This document shows, piece after piece, positions 35,366-45,159 of a stretch of 64,000 nucleotides of DNA. The notes under the pieces are model-generated. The model was not told the DNA's origin. It did no database searches and saw nothing but the letters and a program-made list of their open reading frames with translations. How positions within the stretch are numbered: position 1 is the stretch's first letter; each line of letters starts with the position of its first letter. Origin of the DNA: Escherichia phage ECOH1. The translations under genes were made by a program, and so were the position numbers. The stretch lies in the sequence record ON540300.1; one strand, written 5' to 3'.

Positions 35366-36541
35366 ATGGCAGTAGGTGAAATTCAAATTAGTGCCTTGCC
35401 ACAAGCGGCCTTACCAGTTGATTTGAGTGATATCTTCCACCTTAAGCAAGGTGTTGAGGATAAAAGATGTACGCTTGAGCAGTTGTTAGCACCTCACGCA
35501 TCTTTGAGGAATAACCCTCATGGTGTAACTAAATCACAAGTAGGTCTTGATAATGTTATTAACTCTCTTCAATTAGTTGCAGCTAATAACTTGTCAGATA
35601 TTGTAAGTGTTGCTGAGGCAAGAGCAAATCTACAAATTATGTCGTCAGAGGAAGTGAATAACTTAATTCAGCAACATATTGACGACAAAAGTAACCCACA
35701 CAATACAACGAAAGCACAGGTTGGTTTAAGTAATGTTCAGAACTGGACAACATCTAATCTGTACAATGAAGATGCTGATAAGTATGCTACCGCGAAAGCA
35801 GTTAATAATTTATACAAAGCTATCCAAGCGTCATATCCAGTAGGGACTATTCATCTATCTGTTAACTCTGCTAACCCATCCACTTACTTGCTTTGTGGAG
35901 GTACTTGGGAGTTAGTTTCTAAAGGTAGAGCACTAGTTGGTTATGATACAGATTCTAGACCTGTTGGTTCAACGTTTGGTTCTCAGACTGTAGCATTAAC
36001 AAATAATAATTTACCAGCACATACTCACTCTATCTATCTAACAGGTGGTGGTCATACACACTCTGCAAGTGTATCTATCTCTAGTTTTGATTATGGTTCA
36101 AAAAGTACATCAACTTTTGATTACGGTACAAAAACGACTAATAGTGCTGGTGCTCACACTCACACGTTTAGTGGCACAACAAGTAATGCTGGTAACCACA
36201 ACCATAGAGTCCCTATGAGGGGTAATGATAGGGGTGGCACAAACGCTATCACTGCATCTGCTGATGCTGGTGTTGGTAATGCTATGTATACTGATTTAGC
36301 TGGTGCTCACACCCATAGCTTCTCAGGTACAACTGCATCATCTGGTGCTCATAGCCATACTGTCGCAATTGGTGCTCACAGCCACACTGTTAATATTGGT
36401 TCGCACAGTCATACAGGCACTGTTACTGTTTCTAGCTCTGAGCATACACACTCAGGGACATCTGGTTCTGTTGGTGGTGGTCAAGCTTTCAGTGTTGAGC
36501 AGCCATCTTTTGTAGTGTATGTGTGGCAGAGAACAGCTTAA
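35366..36541 (+). CDS. tail fibre protein with C-terminal His-rich HxH repeats
   Basis: LPAHTHS...GAHTHTFSGTT...GAHSHTVAIGAHSHTV...AFSV...WQRTA; C-terminal motif shared with next gene. Confidence 0.7.
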   Translation: MAVGEIQISALPQAALPVDLSDIFHLKQGVEDKRCTLEQLLAPHASLRNNPHGVTKSQVGLDNVINSLQLVAANNLSDIVSVAEARANLQIMSSEEVNNLIQQHIDDKSNPHNTTKAQVGLSNVQNWTTSNLYNEDADKYATAKAVNNLYKAIQASYPVGTIHLSVNSANPSTYLLCGGTWELVSKGRALVGYDTDSRPVGSTFGSQTVALTNNNLPAHTHSIYLTGGGHTHSASVSISSFDYGSKSTSTFDYGTKTTNSAGAHTHTFSGTTSNAGNHNHRVPMRGNDRGGTNAITASADAGVGNAMYTDLAGAHTHSFSGTTASSGAHSHTVAIGAHSHTVNIGSHSHTGTVTVSSSEHTHSGTSGSVGGGQAFSVEQPSFVVYVWQRTA

Positions 36542-36587
36542 TTTCTTTACAGGGGCTATAAAGCCCCTTTTAAGAGGAAAATTCATA

Positions 36588-39137
36588 ATGGCAGATTACA
36601 AATTGAGTCAATTAAACTCAATCGACACAATTCGTTCAGAAGACCTATTGCACATCAGAGTTAAGAAAAGACCTGAAATGTTGGGTGACGAAGACCGTAG
36701 AATGACCTATCAAGACTTCTTAGCTTCCTTCAAACTAGAAAGGTTTGTTCAGATTGCTGGGAGTACTATGGTTGGGGATTTAGGTATTGTCAAGTTACTT
36801 TACGGTGGTAAGGCAGTATTTGACCCAACAGGCTCTTCTGAGATTACTATTGGGGATATTTTAAAGACTTTTAAAATTAACTCAAATGGGCTTAAACTCA
36901 CTATTGCAGATGCCACAAGGTCGGCAACTGTTTATCATACTTTGAATAAACCAAGCCCTAATGAACTTGGTATGAGAACTAATGAAGAGAATGATGCAAG
37001 ATATGCAAGGCTTGCTGTTACAAACACATTCTCTGGAACTCAGAACATTCAAGGTGATGCTAACTTACTTCGTCTTAGAAACCAGAATGCAAATAATGCG
37101 CAATATATTGAGGGTGTGAACTTAGATGGTTCAGCTAGATGGTGGGTTGGTATTGGTAGTAATGGCTCTGATGAAGTAAAACTGTACAATAACAAATACA
37201 ACTCAGCTTTGACTATTGCAAGCAATATCTCTGTTAATAAGTCTTTAGCAATCACTGGACAAGTTCAACCTTCAGATTTCTCTAACTTAGATGCTAGATA
37301 CTTCACTCAGACAGTTGCTAATCAGAGATTTGCACAGTTAGCTGGCAATAATACTTTTACAGGTGCTAACACATTTAGGACTATGAGTGTTATTTCAAAT
37401 GCTGCTGCTATCACACTGCAATGTGCATCAGCAAACGAATCCCTGTATCTACTTGCAAAAGATTATGAAGGTGGAAACTTATGGTATCTTGGTAAAGGTA
37501 GTTCAGGTGCTGGTGTAACTATCTACAACTATACCACTGACACCTCTTTGGTCTTAGATGCTGCTGGAGTATCAGCAAATAAAAATGTCAGAATCACTGG
37601 ACAAGTTCAACCTTCAGATTGGGCTAACATTGACTCTAGATATATTCCGGCAGCAACATTAAGTACAATTGCAAGAACTAATGCAAGGAATACTTTTAAT
37701 GGTGTACAGACAGTTGTTACGGATAATGAAGGTCTGATTGTTAAAAACTCTACTCAGAATAGACCATTATATATTCGTGGTGTGGACACTACTAATGTAT
37801 CAAGATGGTGGATTGGTGTTGGTGGTGCTGATACGAATGATGTTACCCTAAATAACAGTTATTCTGGAACCCAATTGGTTCTCGGAAATACAACATCATA
37901 CATTAACAAAACATTGACTATTGCTGGACAAGTTCAACCTTCAGATTTCTCTAACTTAGATGCTAGATACTTTACGCAAAGTGCTAGTGATAGCAGATAC
38001 CTAAGAATCAGAAGTACTAGTTTTAATTTAGGAAACGGTGAAAAGTGGGCTAAAATCGCTACTGTTGTAATGCCACAATCAACATCTACGGCAGTCATTG
38101 AGGTTTTTGGAGGTGCTGGTTTTAATGCGAATAACCCATACCAAGCAGGTAAGTGTGAAATTGTTTTACGAACGTCAAATAATAATACAAAGGATTTAAA
38201 TGCTGTAGCTTGGAGAACAGCAGATAATGCCCTCATCACGGATATTGGTTATATTAACACTTCTGGTGACACTTATGATATTTACTGTAAGGTTGGTGGC
38301 TACCAAAATTCTACGGTATCTAGGGTTCAATCTTCTAGTAATGCAAGTGTACAGTTGTTTGAAGTCCCGCAAACATTTGATGATGCTCCACAAGGTATTG
38401 TGAAGGGTACACTTGCAAGGTACTACACAAGTTTGCAAAAACCAACCCCTTCAGATATTGGTGCATACACTAAAGCAGAGACTGACCAGAAAATTGCAGA
38501 AGCGATTAGTGACTCTACAGACCTGAATAAAATCTATCCAGTAGGTATTGTGACGTGGTTTAACAGCAATGTTAACCCTAATACAGCACTTCCTGGGTTA
38601 ACTTGGACGTACCTGAACAATGGTGTTGGCAGAACTATTAGAATTGCAGCAGCAAATGGTTCAGATGTTGCTACAACTGGTGGTTCAGATTCTGTAACGT
38701 TATCTGTTGGTAACTTACCTTCACACACGCACAGTTTCTCTGCTACCACTTCGACGTTTGATTATGGCACTAAGCACACAGATGGTCAGGGTGCTCACGA
38801 CCATGATAGAGGTAATATGGAAATTCATGGTGATTTTGGTTTCTTCAGGAGTGACACATCAAGCTTCTACACTGCTAGTGGGTCTTTTGCTATCTCAGGT
38901 TCACAAGCATCTAGAGGATACACAGGTAATAACTTCACTTACGGTACTCCTGTTAATTTCTATGCCTCTAGAACTTGGACAGGTAGAACAAGTTGGGTAG
39001 GTGCTCATACACATGGTGTAGGTATTGGTGCTCATAACCATACGGTAAGTGGTAACACTGGTGGTACAGGTTCTGGTTCAGCATTTAGTGTTACTAACCA
39101 GTTCTACAAGTTAATGGCTTGGGTAAGAACTGCTTAA
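36588..39137 (+). CDS. long tail fibre protein with internal triplicated repeat and His-rich C-terminus
   Basis: ITGQVQPSDFSNLDARYFTQ repeated three times; C-terminus LPSHTHSF...GAHTHGVGIGAHNHTV...AFSV...WVRTA; ATG 36588 with RBS. Confidence 0.7.
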   Translation: MADYKLSQLNSIDTIRSEDLLHIRVKKRPEMLGDEDRRMTYQDFLASFKLERFVQIAGSTMVGDLGIVKLLYGGKAVFDPTGSSEITIGDILKTFKINSNGLKLTIADATRSATVYHTLNKPSPNELGMRTNEENDARYARLAVTNTFSGTQNIQGDANLLRLRNQNANNAQYIEGVNLDGSARWWVGIGSNGSDEVKLYNNKYNSALTIASNISVNKSLAITGQVQPSDFSNLDARYFTQTVANQRFAQLAGNNTFTGANTFRTMSVISNAAAITLQCASANESLYLLAKDYEGGNLWYLGKGSSGAGVTIYNYTTDTSLVLDAAGVSANKNVRITGQVQPSDWANIDSRYIPAATLSTIARTNARNTFNGVQTVVTDNEGLIVKNSTQNRPLYIRGVDTTNVSRWWIGVGGADTNDVTLNNSYSGTQLVLGNTTSYINKTLTIAGQVQPSDFSNLDARYFTQSASDSRYLRIRSTSFNLGNGEKWAKIATVVMPQSTSTAVIEVFGGAGFNANNPYQAGKCEIVLRTSNNNTKDLNAVAWRTADNALITDIGYINTSGDTYDIYCKVGGYQNSTVSRVQSSSNASVQLFEVPQTFDDAPQGIVKGTLARYYTSLQKPTPSDIGAYTKAETDQKIAEAISDSTDLNKIYPVGIVTWFNSNVNPNTALPGLTWTYLNNGVGRTIRIAAANGSDVATTGGSDSVTLSVGNLPSHTHSFSATTSTFDYGTKHTDGQGAHDHDRGNMEIHGDFGFFRSDTSSFYTASGSFAISGSQASRGYTGNNFTYGTPVNFYASRTWTGRTSWVGAHTHGVGIGAHNHTVSGNTGGTGSGSAFSVTNQFYKLMAWVRTA

Positions 39138-42412: not shown

Positions 42413-42742
42413 TTAATCTGCCAACCTTAAATTAAAATTAACACCAAATTTTTCACATACTTCCAACATAAACTCAAGAGAGACATTACCAGTGAGGTTG
42501 ATTATGTTGGATACACGAGCTTGAGAGATACCACAAATCTTAGCAACTTGCTCTTGAGAAAGACCTCTGGATTTAATCTCTCTCTTAAAACGATGTGCAA
42601 CGAAGTCTCTCATTTCGTCTACATCCATTGGACAAATATAACTCTCCATTTCAGCTTCTCTGTCAGCCTCCCAATCATCTTGTGGAGCATAAGGGTCAAA
42701 AACCTCATTCATCTTTCTTCTTCCGTTTACGTGAAGCATCAA
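42413..42742 (-). CDS. XRE-family helix-turn-helix DNA-binding protein
   Basis: C-terminal LSQEQVAKICGISQARVSNI is a typical HTH_3 segment; acidic N-terminal 45 aa. Confidence 0.65.
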   Translation of the reverse strand: MMLHVNGRRKMNEVFDPYAPQDDWEADREAEMESYICPMDVDEMRDFVAHRFKREIKSRGLSQEQVAKICGISQARVSNIINLTGNVSLEFMLEVCEKFGVNFNLRLAD

Positions 42743-42918: not shown

Positions 42919-43302
42919 TCAAATACCTGTGCAGCTTCTGTTTTCTAAGAAATACTCAACACCATACATAGCTTTTTGCATCAAGTCTTCTTTAAACTGA
43001 ATACGATGATTGAGCATAGCCTGTACATCAATATCTTCATGGTGCTTCTCTTTAATGTTTGCAGATTGCAGGAAATACTCTGCAAGAACACGATACTGAT
43101 AGTCAGTTACCTTATCAGTCATCTCTGTTAAAGACTCTTCAGAGATTGGTTTAAGTAACTCACCATTAGCCAAAGCAACACCTTTAACAATCTGACAAGT
43201 GTCTTCTGGAACACCTGATAAGTCCACATTTGGGAGTTCTGTTGCATTGACTGGTAAATTCATTGACATAACCATTGCAGCAGCTAATAAAATCTTTTTC
43301 AT
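42919..43302 (-). CDS. secreted or periplasmic protein (127 aa) with N-terminal signal peptide
   Basis: MKKILLAAAMVMSMNLPVNA signal-peptide-like N-terminus; GAGGT RBS. Confidence 0.55.
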   Translation of the reverse strand: MKKILLAAAMVMSMNLPVNATELPNVDLSGVPEDTCQIVKGVALANGELLKPISEESLTEMTDKVTDYQYRVLAEYFLQSANIKEKHHEDIDVQAMLNHRIQFKEDLMQKAMYGVEYFLENRSCTGI

Positions 43303-43329: not shown

Positions 43330-43860
43330 GTATTACATTGAGTATAAAAATAAGCTATAACACCTGATTTGTCAACAGATTTTATAGCTTATTTGGCAGA
43401 TTTTTTTTATAAGGCTACTGCCATCCTTCCATACCAAACCATACCAGACATAGCCATACCCGACCGTACCTCGCCTCACAACACTTAAAAATCCTCTTAG
43501 AAGACTCTTAAGTGATGTAATCGAATTTTAATGTAGCTCCGATTAACTACCCATACCTCACCTCATCCAACCATACCATGCCTTACCAGACCGCACCTTA
43601 CCTTATTAAAAGACCCTATTTAAAGACCTTTTAAAAAGGTGAGTCTCATTTTAAATGTAGCTGAGACTAACTACCCATACTGTACCGCACCTGACCCGAC
43701 CTGACCAGACCTAACATTACCGTGCCACACCGTACCGAACAGAACATTGCCATACCTCGCATCACTTAAAAACCCTTTTAAAAGACTCTTAAGTGATGCT
43801 GGTGAGTACCCGTCGGTTTATGCTGCTCAGTATACTCACCAAATTTTCTATGTCAACAAC
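43330..43860. repeat. 530-bp strand-biased (C/A-rich on plus) intergenic region with direct repeats and two covarying hairpins with conserved loop
   Basis: Direct repeat AAAAA(T/C)CC...AAGACTCTTAAGTGATG at 43486-43516 and 43768-43798; hairpins 43518-43545 (TAATCG/CGATTA) and 43641-43668 (AGTCTCA/TGAGACT) share loop TTTTAA(A)TGTAGC and 3' flank AACTACCCATAC. Confidence 0.6.
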
Positions 43861-43862
43861 TT

Positions 43863-44966
43863 TTATTCATAATCCCTAATAACTAGTCCGACAGGGAACT
43901 GTAAAGAACCCTTACGAGTCATCTTCTGGAACTGTACCGTTAAAGGCTTCCCGATAAACTCTTCAGGATGCTCAGCAAGATACTGTTTCTTCTCATGAGT
44001 AGTCTTCCATGAGACATCTACAAAGACGTTAGGAAGAGTCTCTACAACGAACTTGCCATGACCACGCTTATCAGTCTTTACACCAGTCACTTTAAACTCT
44101 TCAGTGTGCATCTTCTTGTGCTTAATCAAGAAGTATGAACGGTGACAACACTCATAGAAGGAGTCTTCAGAGATTGAACGGTACATTGCACCTTCAAACT
44201 TAGCTTCAACCCACTTATCATGAGCTTCATCAAACTCTTCCCAAGAATTTACACGACGAGACTTAACAGGAACAACTTTACAGCCGTCTCTGAAGTCATT
44301 CAATGGTGAAGTCTCAATAATATCTCTACGCTCAGGCCACGTCTTAGTACTATCACAGATATCGTACCAGTAAAACTTGAGCAAGTGTCTGTCAGGATTG
44401 TCTTCATTTTTAATCATGGAGACGATATCTTCTAAGTCCCACCCATGAGCATAAATCTCTCCATCAAATTCATCAACATCTTTGTGGAGCCTTAGCATTG
44501 CCATAATGTCAGGTATTAGTTCGGCAGGGATTTTATAAACAGTATTTTCACGAGAATATGCTGTAAATACACTGCCAATACTTAAGTGTCTTGAAATTCT
44601 ACAACGGACACCATCAAGTTTTGGTTGAGCATCAGCAGGGAACTTCAGATACTTTGCATGACTAACCTTTGCAGCATCATGAGCAAGCTGCACACCTACC
44701 TTCTCAGTATTCTGTGCAGACTCTTTTGTGTAAGCATAGCCTTTGCGGTCAACCTGCTTTTTATACTTAGCAGCAACTTCAAAGAGAGCTTGCTGTTCAG
44801 CGTTACGCTCATTCTTTTTACCGATGTTTTTAGGTTCTGCTGTATACTCTTCAAACATCATCTTGCCATTTTCTTTGCCATACGTGGTAACAACTTTGTC
44901 ACCTACAGCGACACATGACCAGACGTTAAAAGAGCCATCTTTATTTTGTTTGTACAGTATTGTCAT
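43863..44966 (-). CDS. ATP-dependent DNA ligase
   Basis: Motif I PKLDGVRC, motif III FDGEIY, motif V EGAMYRS; start set at Met with GAGGA RBS (track ORF extends to 45002). Confidence 0.8.
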   Translation of the reverse strand: MTILYKQNKDGSFNVWSCVAVGDKVVTTYGKENGKMMFEEYTAEPKNIGKKNERNAEQQALFEVAAKYKKQVDRKGYAYTKESAQNTEKVGVQLAHDAAKVSHAKYLKFPADAQPKLDGVRCRISRHLSIGSVFTAYSRENTVYKIPAELIPDIMAMLRLHKDVDEFDGEIYAHGWDLEDIVSMIKNEDNPDRHLLKFYWYDICDSTKTWPERRDIIETSPLNDFRDGCKVVPVKSRRVNSWEEFDEAHDKWVEAKFEGAMYRSISEDSFYECCHRSYFLIKHKKMHTEEFKVTGVKTDKRGHGKFVVETLPNVFVDVSWKTTHEKKQYLAEHPEEFIGKPLTVQFQKMTRKGSLQFPVGLVIRDYE

Positions 44967-44967
44967 T

Positions 44968-45159
44968 TTATTCCTCTGAGTGATACCAAGTATTGCAAGC
45001 ATTACATGCGTAAAGCTCTAAGTCATTTTTATCTGGTTTATGAAAACAGTTTGCTCCGCAGTGGCAACGAAACGGCTTTCCACCAACTGTCAGGATGAAG
45101 GATTGAACCTTTCCATCAGGAGTCCGTACAGCATTTTTATGCTTGTCTTCTTTATTCAT
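44968..45159 (-). CDS. zinc-finger protein (63 aa)
   Basis: CHCGANC...CNACN cysteine motifs. Confidence 0.45.
   Translation of the reverse strand: MNKEDKHKNAVRTPDGKVQSFILTVGGKPFRCHCGANCFHKPDKNDLELYACNACNTWYHSEE

What the first reader, a model, noticed from the sequence alone, without database searches (positions are those of the whole stretch)
43330..43860. 530-bp strand-biased intergenic region with direct repeats and covarying hairpins
This is the largest non-coding gap in the replication block. It carries C/A-rich short repeats on the plus strand (GGTNNGG-rich on the coding minus strand), two about 30-nt direct repeats, and two hairpins with different but internally complementary stems around the same loop TTTTAA(A)TGTAGC. 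A palindrome-flanked TTGACA promoter for the downstream gene lies at about 43355-43392. Candidate functions are a replication origin, a structured ncRNA or a protein-binding array.
Basis: seen in the sequence. Interest (0 to 1): 0.6.

Follow-up and report, generated by a model that had tools for sequence, protein, structure and literature searches.

The report
Phage guide-RNA array missing its protein
The 530-bp gap is a set of three VIPR guide RNAs, a recently described phage RNA-guided DNA-silencing system, aimed at an E. coli satellite phage, but this phage has lost the Vipr protein gene that would use them.

Summary
On the minus strand, window 43341-43856 holds a near-consensus sigma-70 promoter followed by three tracts of strictly 5-nt-periodic NN-GGY repeats of 17, 10 and 10 units. 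Each tract ends in a conserved pseudoknotted tail. Long hairpins separate the tracts, and a hairpin plus T-run that embeds a second promoter closes the element.

Fourteen of 23 related Felixounavirus loci carry a two-gene cassette inside this same array. Its 195-aa protein matches the solved 'SUSP1 Vipr protein' (PDB 36pp, E = 5e-80). Two April 2026 preprints describe this system, VIPR: vrRNAs made of GGY/NN repeats, one Vipr protomer per repeat, and NN dinucleotides that pair with DNA while skipping every third base.

Under that rule, guide 1 of the window matches 31 of 32 positions in a 185-aa gene of an E. coli satellite phage (null maximum 24). Guides 2 and 3 match 17/18 and 16/18 elsewhere in the satellite.

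The window has no vipr or vap gene, and neither does the complete genome of its close relative S19cd. This is therefore an effector-less vrRNA array, probably produced by deletion between repeated modules. It is not a replication origin. The system is already known; the effector-less state in a lytic phage is a modest new variant.

The parts
43829..43856 (-). Promoter P1 for the vrRNA array: TTGACA (43856-43851), 16-nt spacer, TATACT (43834-43829). The predicted start is near 43822.
   Evidence: 11 of 12 consensus positions. A 39-nt block that includes it is identical to the block upstream of vrRNA1 in phage SUSP1. It is conserved in all 23 related loci that include this region.
43801..43840 (-). 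8-bp inverted repeat GGTGAGTA (43840-43833) / TACTCACC (43808-43801) that brackets the -10 element and the start site. It may be an operator or a leader element; its role is unexplained.
   Evidence: Read from the sequence. It is conserved in the relatives and in SUSP1.
43760..43798 (-). Leader hairpin H1 (CAUCACUUAAGAG...UUAAGUGAUG, about 19 bp), which precedes vrRNA1.
   Evidence: I6, D3; MFE fold. The same module precedes SUSP1 vrRNA1 and vrRNA4.
43677..43758 (-). vrRNA1 repeat tract: 17 GGY/NN units. Guide dinucleotides are GA AT AA TC TC AC GT AC AA TA CT CA CG CA GC AC, plus a conserved terminal AU.
   Evidence: It matches 26-31 of 32 NN positions at one homologous, in-frame site of a 185-aa gene in 11 of 12 E. 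coli satellites. The null mean is 20.6 and the null maximum 24.
43642..43676 (-). vrRNA1 3' tail, type A, an H-type pseudoknot. S1 is GUAG (43674-43671) with CUAC (43660-43657). S2 is AGUCUCA (43668-43662) with UGAGACU (43648-43642).
   Evidence: Nine of 11 pairs change on both sides, 90.9% of cells are paired, and 0 of 500 shuffles reach that. The preprint reports a pseudoknotted tail for the SUSP1 clade.
43600..43641 (-). Inter-guide module H3/H3e (ACCUUUUUAAAAGGU hairpin plus GGGUCUUUUAAUAAGGU), which precedes vrRNA2. In vipr+ relatives a copy lies on each side of the vrRNA-tailC-vipr-vap1 segment, so it is a likely substrate for the deletion.
   Evidence: The same module precedes SUSP1 vrRNA2 and vrRNA3.
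43553..43602 (-). vrRNA2 repeat tract: 10 units, one of them degenerate (GAU). Guide is AA GC CT AA AT AT TG GA GA, plus AU.
   Evidence: It matches 17 of 18 positions at one intergenic hairpin site in three satellites (L150, L160, L161). An equal or better match occurred in 0.3% of random guides.
43519..43552 (-). vrRNA2 3' tail, type A', a pseudoknot. S1 is GUAG/CUAC. S2 is AAUCGGA (43544-43538) with UUCGAUU (43525-43519) and includes a G.U pair.
43479..43517 (-). Leader hairpin H1', the second copy of H1, which precedes vrRNA3.
   Evidence: (I5, D3).
43431..43480 (-). vrRNA3 repeat tract: 10 units. Guide is GA GA AC CG AT TA CT AT TT, plus AU.
   Evidence: It matches 16 of 18 positions (L151) and 15 of 18 (L158) on the template strand over codons 3-11 of the satellite's small serine-recombinase gene, with the skipped bases at wobble positions. 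An equal or better match occurred in 0.3% of random guides.
43395..43430 (-). vrRNA3 3' tail, type B, a pseudoknot. S1 is AAGG (43428-43425) with CCUU (43414-43411). S2 is GGCAG (43422-43418) with CUGCC (43399-43395).
   Evidence: Identical in type to the last tail of the SUSP1 array.
43341..43394 (-). Terminal AT-rich palindromic hairpin followed by a U-run, a likely terminator of the array. It embeds promoter P2 (TTGACA 43375-43370, TATTTT 43352-43347) for the downstream 127-aa gene.
   Evidence: (I3). It has 1 mismatch in 54 nt to the consensus of the relatives, which SUSP1 matches exactly.

Best explanation
The gap is the guide-RNA half of a type II VIPR (Viral Interference Programmable Repeat) locus of the SUSP1 / Felix-O1 phage group. 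The effector genes vipr and vap1 have been deleted from it.

Shown or directly supported: promoter P1 points into three tandem vrRNA units on the minus strand. Each unit has a tract of GGY/NN pentamers and a pseudoknotted 3' tail, with leader hairpins between units and a terminator-like hairpin at the end. In relatives the same array surrounds vipr and vap1.

Taken from the preprints: one Vipr protomer clamps each GGY, forming a helical filament. The exposed NN dinucleotides pair with double-stranded DNA while skipping every third base, usually the codon wobble, and the bound complex silences transcription.

Found here: all three guides of the window point to an E. coli satellite phage that carries baseplate and tape-measure genes.

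Inferred: the deletion arose by recombination between the repeated H3e modules or the repeat tracts that flank the cassette. The RNAs are still made from P1. In this phage they can act only if Vipr is supplied in trans, for example by a co-infecting vipr+ relative. Otherwise they are inert passengers of a recent deletion.
For: Strict 5-nt GGY/NN periodicity: 64 of 66 arrays keep phase from one conserved flank to the other, and lengths differ only by multiples of 5.

In 14 of 23 related loci a 195-aa plus 146-aa cassette sits inside the array.

A profile of the 195-aa family hits PDB 36pp 'SUSP1 Vipr protein' at E = 5e-80. The AlphaFold model has pLDDT 94.8. The GGY-contacting residues named in the structural preprint (H17, R138, D177, W178, R179) are at the same positions in the Felixounavirus protein, and H17, R138 and R179 are invariant or nearly invariant in the family alignment.

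A blind DNA-pattern scan of IMG/VR for GGTNN x6 recovered arrays next to Vipr homologues in at least 26 further viral contigs, unrelated to Felixounavirus.

Preprints 10.64898/2026.04.26.720920 and 10.64898/2026.04.26.720927 describe exactly this RNA, protein and targeting rule.

The window's P1, H1, H3 and tail B/terminator modules match their SUSP1 counterparts; P1 is identical over 39 nt and the terminator block is 1 mismatch off. SUSP1 vrRNAs were detected there by sRNA-seq.

Tail pseudoknot covariation.

Targets under the 1-nt-skip rule: vr1 31 of 32, in frame, in 11 of 12 satellites; vr2 17 of 18; vr3 16 of 18 with wobble phasing. There is no self-target in the window.

No Vipr in the window (best E = 3.1) or in the complete collinear genome S19cd (best E = 3), against 1.4e-82 for a positive control.
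Against: No expression data exist for this phage; promoter and terminator are consensus matches only.

The window covers 64 kb of a roughly 86-kb genome, so absence of vipr from the unseen part rests on the relative S19cd.

vr1 has 17 units, just outside the 9-16 range the preprint reports. One unit of vr2 is degenerate (GAU).

The vr2 and vr3 targets are only moderately above the null (0.3% each).

No perfect 32 of 32 target was found, and only 12 satellites were sampled.

Whether the RNAs do anything without Vipr is untested. Repeat integrity is the same in vipr-less and vipr+ loci (DGY 97.8% vs 98.2%). At 2-3% flank divergence that comparison cannot separate selection from recency.
Confidence: 0.88

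Rival explanations
1. Pure relic. The array is a leftover of a recent vipr-vap1 deletion, has no function in this phage (in cis or in trans), and will decay or be lost.
For: Direct repeats (H3e modules and the repeat tracts) flank the cassette in vipr+ relatives, so deletion is mechanically easy. Vipr-less loci with 1, 2 or 3 vrRNAs are scattered among vipr+ ones in the flank tree, which suggests recurrent loss. Flank divergence is only 2-3%, too little for decay to show.
Against: All 10 vipr-less loci keep P1, at least one complete vrRNA, tail B and the terminator. The window sits in a clade of five vipr-less loci that differ in guide number and content, so the state has persisted through some diversification. 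In 9 of 17 vipr-less guides at least 80% of NN positions match a satellite, against 33 of 47 in vipr+ loci.
Confidence: 0.35
2. Decoy or sponge. The effector-less array is kept because its RNAs load onto, and so titrate or redirect, the Vipr protein of competing vipr+ phages. This would be analogous to RNA anti-CRISPRs.
For: It has a strong promoter, intact Vipr-binding repeats and tails, and no cognate protein. Satellites also carry single vrRNAs without Vipr, so use of another element's Vipr appears to be a natural mode (preprint).
Against: The guides still match satellite genes rather than being random. That fits guides better than pure sponges. There is no direct evidence.
Confidence: 0.08
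3. Replication origin. A promoter followed by a G-rich non-template strand forms a persistent R-loop or G-quadruplex that primes DNA synthesis, as at T4 oriF/oriG or ColE1.
For: The location is between the ligase and nucleotide-metabolism genes. There is a strong promoter and a GG run every 5 nt on the non-template strand.
Against: R-loop or G4 formation does not explain the Y at position 5, the exact 5-nt phase, or the tolerance of UGU/AGU units. It also does not explain NN positions that spell a satellite gene in codon phase, or the linkage to a RAMP protein in unrelated viruses. GC skew only tracks gene orientation.
Confidence: 0.02
4. A long structured 5' leader or insulator that regulates the downstream operon (the 127-aa gene and the HTH regulator), for example by attenuation.
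For: It is transcribed toward the downstream genes, and the terminal hairpin overlaps promoter P2.
Against: The downstream genes have their own promoter. The same modules flank vipr and vap1 in relatives and are processed into roughly 100-nt sRNAs in SUSP1 according to the preprint.
Confidence: 0.03

Closest known systems
Type II VIPR locus of Escherichia phage SUSP1 (vrRNA1-4, vipr, vap1); bioRxiv 10.64898/2026.04.26.720920 and 10.64898/2026.04.26.720927; PDB 36pp
   Same: Same genomic position, between the DNA ligase and the phrog_4332 gene. The promoter block is identical over 39 nt. The H1 and H3 leader modules, the GGY/NN repeat code, the pseudoknotted tails (types A and B), the terminator and the target (an E. 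coli satellite phage) are all the same.
   Different: The window has no vipr, no vap1, and no tail-C vrRNA upstream of vipr. It has three guides rather than four. vr1 has 17 units, against 9-16 reported. It carries a tail variant A' with a different, compensated S2 helix.
Single vrRNAs carried by the E. coli satellites themselves (mentioned in the same preprint)
   Same: These are also vrRNAs without a Vipr gene in the same element, so they must borrow Vipr.
   Different: They sit on an integrated satellite, with one guide each and a tail of type C. The window's array is on the lytic helper-type phage, which normally supplies Vipr.
Orphan CRISPR arrays, phage-borne mini-arrays and RNA anti-CRISPRs (recalled from memory, not tested here)
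   Same: Guide-RNA genes that lack their effector genes and can act only through an effector made elsewhere, or that interfere with it.
   Different: A different RNA architecture (contiguous spacers between repeats) and different effectors. There is no evidence here for an interfering role.
Class 1 CRISPR crRNA bound by a Cas7 backbone
   Same: A RAMP-fold protein polymerises along the guide with a fixed nucleotide period, and thumb domains interrupt pairing (preprint text).
   Different: The period is 5 rather than 6. Three bases per unit are sequestered and sequence-specific (GGY) and only two pair. The target is read with a 1-nt skip.
TRAP binding sites in the Bacillus trp leader: 9-11 (G/U)AG triplets with 2-3-nt spacers (recalled from memory)
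   Same: A triplet plus a 2-nt spacer, with one protomer per repeat. This analogy was the working hypothesis before the Vipr match.
   Different: TRAP is a closed ring, its spacers carry no information, the RNA is a cis leader, and the proteins are not homologous.

Membership tests
VIPR vrRNA (guide RNA of VIPR systems) | Tandem YNNGG (GGY/NN) pentamer repeats, about 9-16 units, in strict register | tested here: met
   Three tracts of 17, 10 and 10 units on the minus strand. There are no other such arrays in the window, and 0.055 per shuffled window. vr1 is one unit above the published range.
VIPR vrRNA (guide RNA of VIPR systems) | GGY conserved and NN hypervariable among close relatives | tested here: met
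   729 pentamers from 64 arrays: G4 98%, Y5 99.9%, D3 100% (C 0%), and positions 1-2 near-uniform. Arrays differ between phages whose flanks are 97-98% identical.
VIPR vrRNA (guide RNA of VIPR systems) | Conserved structured 3' tail (a pseudoknot in the SUSP1 clade) | tested here: met
   H-type pseudoknot. Nine of 11 pairs show changes on both sides, 90.9% of cells are paired against 26-52% when partners are slid, and 0 of 500 shuffles reach that.
VIPR vrRNA (guide RNA of VIPR systems) | NN dinucleotides match a natural DNA target under the 1-nt-skip rule (at least 80% of NN), with skipped bases at codon wobble positions | tested here: met
   vr1 31/32 (97%), in frame; vr2 17/18; vr3 16/18 on the antisense strand with wobble phasing. 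All three targets are in one E. coli satellite family. The null maxima from 300 random guides were 24/32, 17/18 and 16/18, and equal or better matches occurred in 0, 0.3% and 0.3% of them.
VIPR vrRNA (guide RNA of VIPR systems) | Expressed as a roughly 100-nt small RNA that co-purifies with Vipr | not testable with these tools
   Only a consensus promoter and module-by-module homology to the SUSP1 locus. The SUSP1 vrRNAs were seen by sRNA-seq and pull-down according to the preprint.
Complete VIPR system (type II) | A vipr gene (minimal RAMP: RRM core, thumb, G-loop) encoded next to the vrRNAs | tested here: not met
   A Vipr profile HMM against six-frame ORFs gave a best window hit of E = 3.1 and a best S19cd whole-genome hit of E = 3. 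The positive control L005 gave 1.4e-82. tblastn was also negative. Fourteen of 23 related loci have the gene at this exact position.
Complete VIPR system (type II) | The accessory gene vap1 downstream of vipr | tested here: not met
   The 146-aa protein (phrog_5926) is absent from the window and present in cassette-bearing relatives.
Phage replication origin (R-loop or iteron type) | Iterons for an initiator, or a DNA-unwinding element downstream of a promoter; a GC-skew switch not explained by gene orientation | tested here: inconclusive
   A promoter is present. The skew changes at about 40 kb and 50 kb coincide with changes in gene orientation. No initiator-type 10-11-bp-phased iterons were seen. 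The guide-RNA reading accounts for every repeat property.
Rfam families (all 4227) | A covariance-model match at or above the gathering score | tested here: not met
   The best hit was DUF2815 RNA at 18.4 bits against a gathering score of 41.2, E = 1.7. No Rfam family reached its gathering score here, so Rfam offers no name for this RNA.

The most novel reading that the evidence does not exclude
Effector-less vrRNA arrays in lytic Felixounaviruses are not debris but a maintained strategy. The phage keeps a promoter-driven set of anti-satellite guides and relies on Vipr made by co-infecting vipr+ relatives, acting as a 'cheater' on a shared effector. Alternatively, it uses them to hijack or titrate a rival's Vipr, as an RNA anti-VIPR.

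The evidence does not exclude this. Ten of 24 loci are vipr-less, yet all keep the promoter, tails and intact repeats. One vipr-less clade that includes this window has diversified in guide number and content. Its guides still match real satellite variants.
Probability: 0.2. Interest if true: 0.7.

Novelty: new variant of a known kind. Interest (0 to 1): 0.45.

Why it matters
VIPR was reported only in April 2026, as a minimal RNA-guided DNA-recognition system proposed to predate CRISPR. Its discovery pipeline started from the protein, so loci that lack vipr were invisible to it.

The same guide arrays persist, with promoter, tails and satellite-matching guides, in roughly 40% of sampled Felix-O1-like phage loci that have lost the effector. 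This raises testable questions. Can guides be shared in trans between co-infecting phages, helpers and satellites? How fast do guide sets turn over by recombination between the conserved inter-guide modules?

For annotation, several hundred base pairs of 'intergenic' sequence in a large family of therapeutic and typing phages can now be named. A simple DNA pattern (GGYNN repeated six or more times) finds VIPR loci without any protein search.

Tried and rejected
Rfam scan at a permissive E-value: nothing credible.

Search for other copies of the loop motif or the region elsewhere in the window: none.

The replication-origin, R-loop and G-quadruplex readings, a Rho rut site on the C-rich antisense RNA, CsrA, Hfq and TRAP-like sponges, primase-site arrays, Chi-like sequences and RfaH ops similarity were all considered from the sequence. 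I dropped them once the link to Vipr appeared. None of them explains a conserved pyrimidine at position 5 together with informational NN positions.

Pfam, PHROGs and PADLOC give no function for the 195-aa and 146-aa proteins.

The 2010 Felix O1 genome paper and a Bas63 essentiality preprint do not mention the region.

Exact-pattern scans gave nothing useful. vr1 had no match in the GTDB species-representative genomes. vr3 had no match in IMG/VR. The three IMG/VR hits for vr2 are at the number expected by chance for 18 specified bases, by my estimate, and one is on a giant-virus contig.

Hypothesis that satellite vrRNAs target the helper phage, which would make vipr loss an escape: not supported. 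The best matches in the window and in S19cd equal the null.

Looking for the satellite family outside E. coli found only E. albertii among species representatives. Whether Salmonella hosts carry such satellites remains open.

Fuzzy-regex landmark mapping timed out and was replaced by ungapped scanning.

The comparison of GGY integrity in vipr-less and vipr+ loci showed no difference but has little power.

Full report
WHAT IS THERE

The window is a Felix-O1-like myovirus (Felixounavirus). The region and its flanks match 259 phage records, and the window is collinear at 91-97% identity with Salmonella phage S19cd. The finding lies in the 560-nt gap between the DNA ligase gene (43863-45002, minus) and a 127-aa gene of unknown function (42919-43302, minus; phrog_4332).

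Read on the minus strand, the gap has a clear modular anatomy:
- a near-consensus sigma-70 promoter P1 (TTGACA-16-TATACT, 43856-43829);
- a roughly 19-bp hairpin H1 (43798-43760);
- repeat tract 1 (43758-43677) and a structured tail (43676-43642);
- a spacer module H3/H3e (43641-43600);
- repeat tract 2 (43602-43553) and a tail (43552-43519);
- a second copy of H1 (43517-43479);
- repeat tract 3 (43480-43431) and a tail (43430-43395);
- an AT-rich palindromic hairpin with a U-run (43394-43341) that embeds a second promoter for the downstream gene.

THE REPEATS

The repeats are not loosely 'GGTNNGG-rich'. They are exactly 5-nt periodic NN-GGY units. A mechanical scan finds three arrays of at least 9 in-phase units here and none elsewhere on either strand of the 64-kb window. 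Shuffled windows give 0.055 arrays of 7 or more units each.

I collected 23 related loci from IMG/VR and two from GenBank. One IMG/VR locus starts too close to its contig end to include this region, so 24 related loci could be compared. In all of these, the promoter, hairpins, tails and terminator are nearly invariant, while the tracts between them differ almost completely in sequence and in number: one to five tracts per locus.

Even so, 64 of 66 distinct tracts keep exact phase from one conserved flank to the next, and their lengths differ only by multiples of five. Over 729 pentamers, positions 1-2 are essentially free. Position 3 is G/T/A at 78/14/8% and never C. Position 4 is G in 98%. 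Position 5 is T or C in 99.9%.

HOW THE IDENTITY WAS FOUND

In 14 of the 23 related loci that include this region, a two-gene cassette (195 aa, phrog_4652; 146 aa, phrog_5926; no Pfam domain) sits inside the array region, with tracts on both sides.

Independently, I scanned IMG/VR for the bare DNA pattern GGTNN x6. This returned many unrelated viral contigs with multi-tract arrays, and tblastn found homologues of the 195-aa protein (20-43% identity) directly next to the arrays in at least 26 of them. The protein and the repeat therefore travel together across distant viruses.

The family has more than 500 members, all unnamed. It has a RAMP-like N-terminal strand and a C-terminal glycine-rich loop, G-x-G-D-W-R-P-R-F-G-R-F. 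Its profile matches one solved structure, PDB 36pp 'SUSP1 Vipr protein', at E = 5e-80. The AlphaFold model is confident, with pLDDT 94.8.

A literature search then found two bioRxiv preprints of April 2026. They describe VIPR, 'Viral Interference Programmable Repeat'. Its main features, as reported there:
- Vipr is a minimal RAMP protein.
- vrRNAs consist of 9-16 YNNGG repeats followed by a conserved 3' tail, which is a pseudoknot in the SUSP1 clade.
- One Vipr protomer binds per repeat, forming a right-handed filament that sequesters each GGY.
- The NN dinucleotides pair with double-stranded DNA while skipping every third base, usually the codon wobble.
- The complex silences transcription.
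- SUSP1-clade guides mostly target a satellite phage integrated in E. coli.

CHECKS MADE HERE

(a) Homology to SUSP1. The experimentally characterised SUSP1 locus has the layout P1-H1-vrRNA1-tailC-vipr-vap1-H3-vrRNA2-tailA-H3-vrRNA3-tailA-H1-vrRNA4-tailB-terminator. The window's P1 (39 of 39 nt), H1, H3, tail B and terminator modules match these module for module (the terminator block has 1 mismatch).

(b) Tails. The window's three tails (types A, A', B), plus type C from relatives and satellites, align in register. They support an H-type pseudoknot: 9 of 11 pairs change on both sides, 90.9% of cells are paired against 26-52% when partners are slid, and 0 of 500 shuffles do as well. The G.U pair in tail A' exists only on the minus strand, which fixes the transcribed strand.

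(c) Targets. I located the satellites by blastn of a relative's locus against complete E. coli genomes. Fifty genomes carry a 64-93-nt match in an unannotated stretch. I fetched 12 of these loci. The intact copies are roughly 12-kb islands with a serine recombinase, baseplate, tape-measure and HNH genes.

Applying the 1-nt-skip rule to the window's guides gave these results:
- vr1 matches 26-31 of 32 NN positions at one homologous, in-frame site of a 185-aa gene in 11 of 12 satellites. The best is 31 of 32 in strain 873.10, over the peptide EINSATVTNYLQRQAT. Three hundred random guides drawn from the family's NN pool averaged 20.6, with a maximum of 24.
- vr2 matches 17 of 18 at one intergenic hairpin in three satellites.
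- vr3 matches 16 of 18 and 15 of 18 on the template strand over codons 3-11 of the small recombinase gene, again with the skipped bases at wobble positions. Equal or better matches occurred in 0.3% of random guides for each of vr2 and vr3.

There is no self-target in the window. Across the 24 loci, 42 of 64 guides reach at least 80% NN match in only six satellites, and several are perfect.

WHAT IS UNUSUAL ABOUT THIS WINDOW

It has the guides but not the effector. tblastn and a Vipr profile HMM find nothing in the window (best E = 3.1) or in the complete genome of S19cd (best E = 3). The same search scores 1.4e-82 on a cassette-bearing relative.

In GenBank phages, vipr at 90% identity or more occurs in 118 records, once per genome. 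In my sample 10 of 24 loci are vipr-less, with one, two or three vrRNAs.

In vipr+ loci, copies of the H3e module and the repeat tracts lie on both sides of the cassette. The window's order (H3 - tract - tail A' - H1' - tract - tail B) is what a deletion between them would leave.

In a tree of the downstream flank, the window falls in a clade of five vipr-less loci that differ in guide number and content. Five further vipr-less loci are scattered among vipr+ ones.

Repeat integrity is the same in both groups: GGY 77.5% vs 76.4%, and DGY 97.8% vs 98.2%. Nine of 17 vipr-less guides still reach at least 80% match to a satellite. With flanks only 2-3% diverged, this cannot distinguish selection from recency.

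The satellites themselves carry one vrRNA each and no Vipr. Borrowing Vipr from another element therefore appears to be a natural mode, and the preprint notes satellite-borne vrRNAs. The preprint text contains no mention of orphan, stand-alone or trans-acting arrays in phages, or of Felixounavirus. Its pipeline starts from the protein.

MECHANISM AND STATUS

Shown or directly supported here:
- the anatomy of the locus;
- conservation of GGY alongside hypervariable NN;
- pseudoknot covariation in the tails;
- linkage of the repeats to Vipr in relatives and in distant viruses;
- satellite targets in codon phase;
- absence of vipr and vap1 from the window.

Taken from the preprints: filament assembly, the gapped pairing rule and transcriptional silencing.

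Inferred: transcription from P1, termination at the palindrome, possible processing at the long H1 hairpins, origin of the locus by deletion, and dependence on Vipr supplied in trans.

REJECTED READINGS

A replication origin, an R-loop or G-quadruplex element and generic protein sponges do not explain the pyrimidine at position 5, the exact register, the informational NN positions or the RAMP linkage. GC skew follows gene orientation. Rfam has no family for this RNA.

VERDICT

Its 'structured ncRNA / protein-binding array' options are correct, and the origin option is not.

The element belongs to a system that is already described, so its general nature is no longer new. What is new, as far as the searchable literature shows, is that a large fraction of Felix-O1-like phages carry promoter-driven, satellite-matching vrRNA arrays with no vipr gene. 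This suggests, but does not demonstrate, trans-use or decoy roles.

Noticed in passing
L058 3554-4052 (-) and L119 1845-3302 (+), IMG/VR contigs: Continuous in-phase GGY/NN tracts of 53-60 units lie next to Vipr homologues. This is far longer than the 9-16 units reported for vrRNAs. They may be staggered or overlapping arrays, or a different architecture.
   Followed up: no
L146-L151 and L157-L162 (E. coli chromosomes), for example L151 12000-12090: Each satellite carries a single vrRNA with a type-C tail but no Vipr homologue. The adjacent small serine-recombinase gene is in either orientation in different strains (plus in L151 and L158, minus in the others), which suggests an invertible segment. 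The window's vr3 points at the start of that gene.
   Followed up: partly
L150 about 17434 and L146 about 19553 (cmoB-torZ intergenic region of the host): The satellite vrRNA of L146/L147 has its best non-self match (21-22 of 24 NN) in a host intergenic region a few kb from the satellite's integration site. Its significance was not evaluated.
   Followed up: no
window 43801-43840 (-): An 8-bp inverted repeat GGTGAGTA/TACTCACC brackets the -10 element and start site of P1. It is conserved in all relatives and in SUSP1. It may be an operator for the nearby HTH regulator (42413-42742), but this is unexplained.
   Followed up: no
window 43615-43677 (-): A weak Rfam hit to DUF2815 RNA (18.4 bits, E = 1.7) overlaps the vrRNA1 tail and H3. 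It shares a 5' GGGUAG, a hairpin and an AAAAGG run. This may be chance or a distant link between that phage motif and vrRNA tails.
   Followed up: no
L001, L009, L019, L020 (between the ligase stop and P1); L007, L013, L024, L025: Some relatives carry a 48-aa hydrophobic ORF, and others a different insert of about 180 nt, between the ligase stop and P1. The window has neither.
   Followed up: no
window about 38980-39080 (+), inside the 872-aa ORF 36519-39137: This is the second-highest GGT density in the window. It lies within a long coding region, probably a glycine-rich tail-fibre segment, and is unrelated to the 5-nt arrays.
   Followed up: no
satellite 185-aa gene, for example L150 10479 compared with L162 8030: Satellite variants differ from the window's vr1 at serine codons (AGC vs TCN) and at Asn/Ser (AAC vs AGC). 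A vipr+ relative (L021) carries the matching 'AG' guide variant. Guide and target variants appear to track each other.
   Followed up: partly
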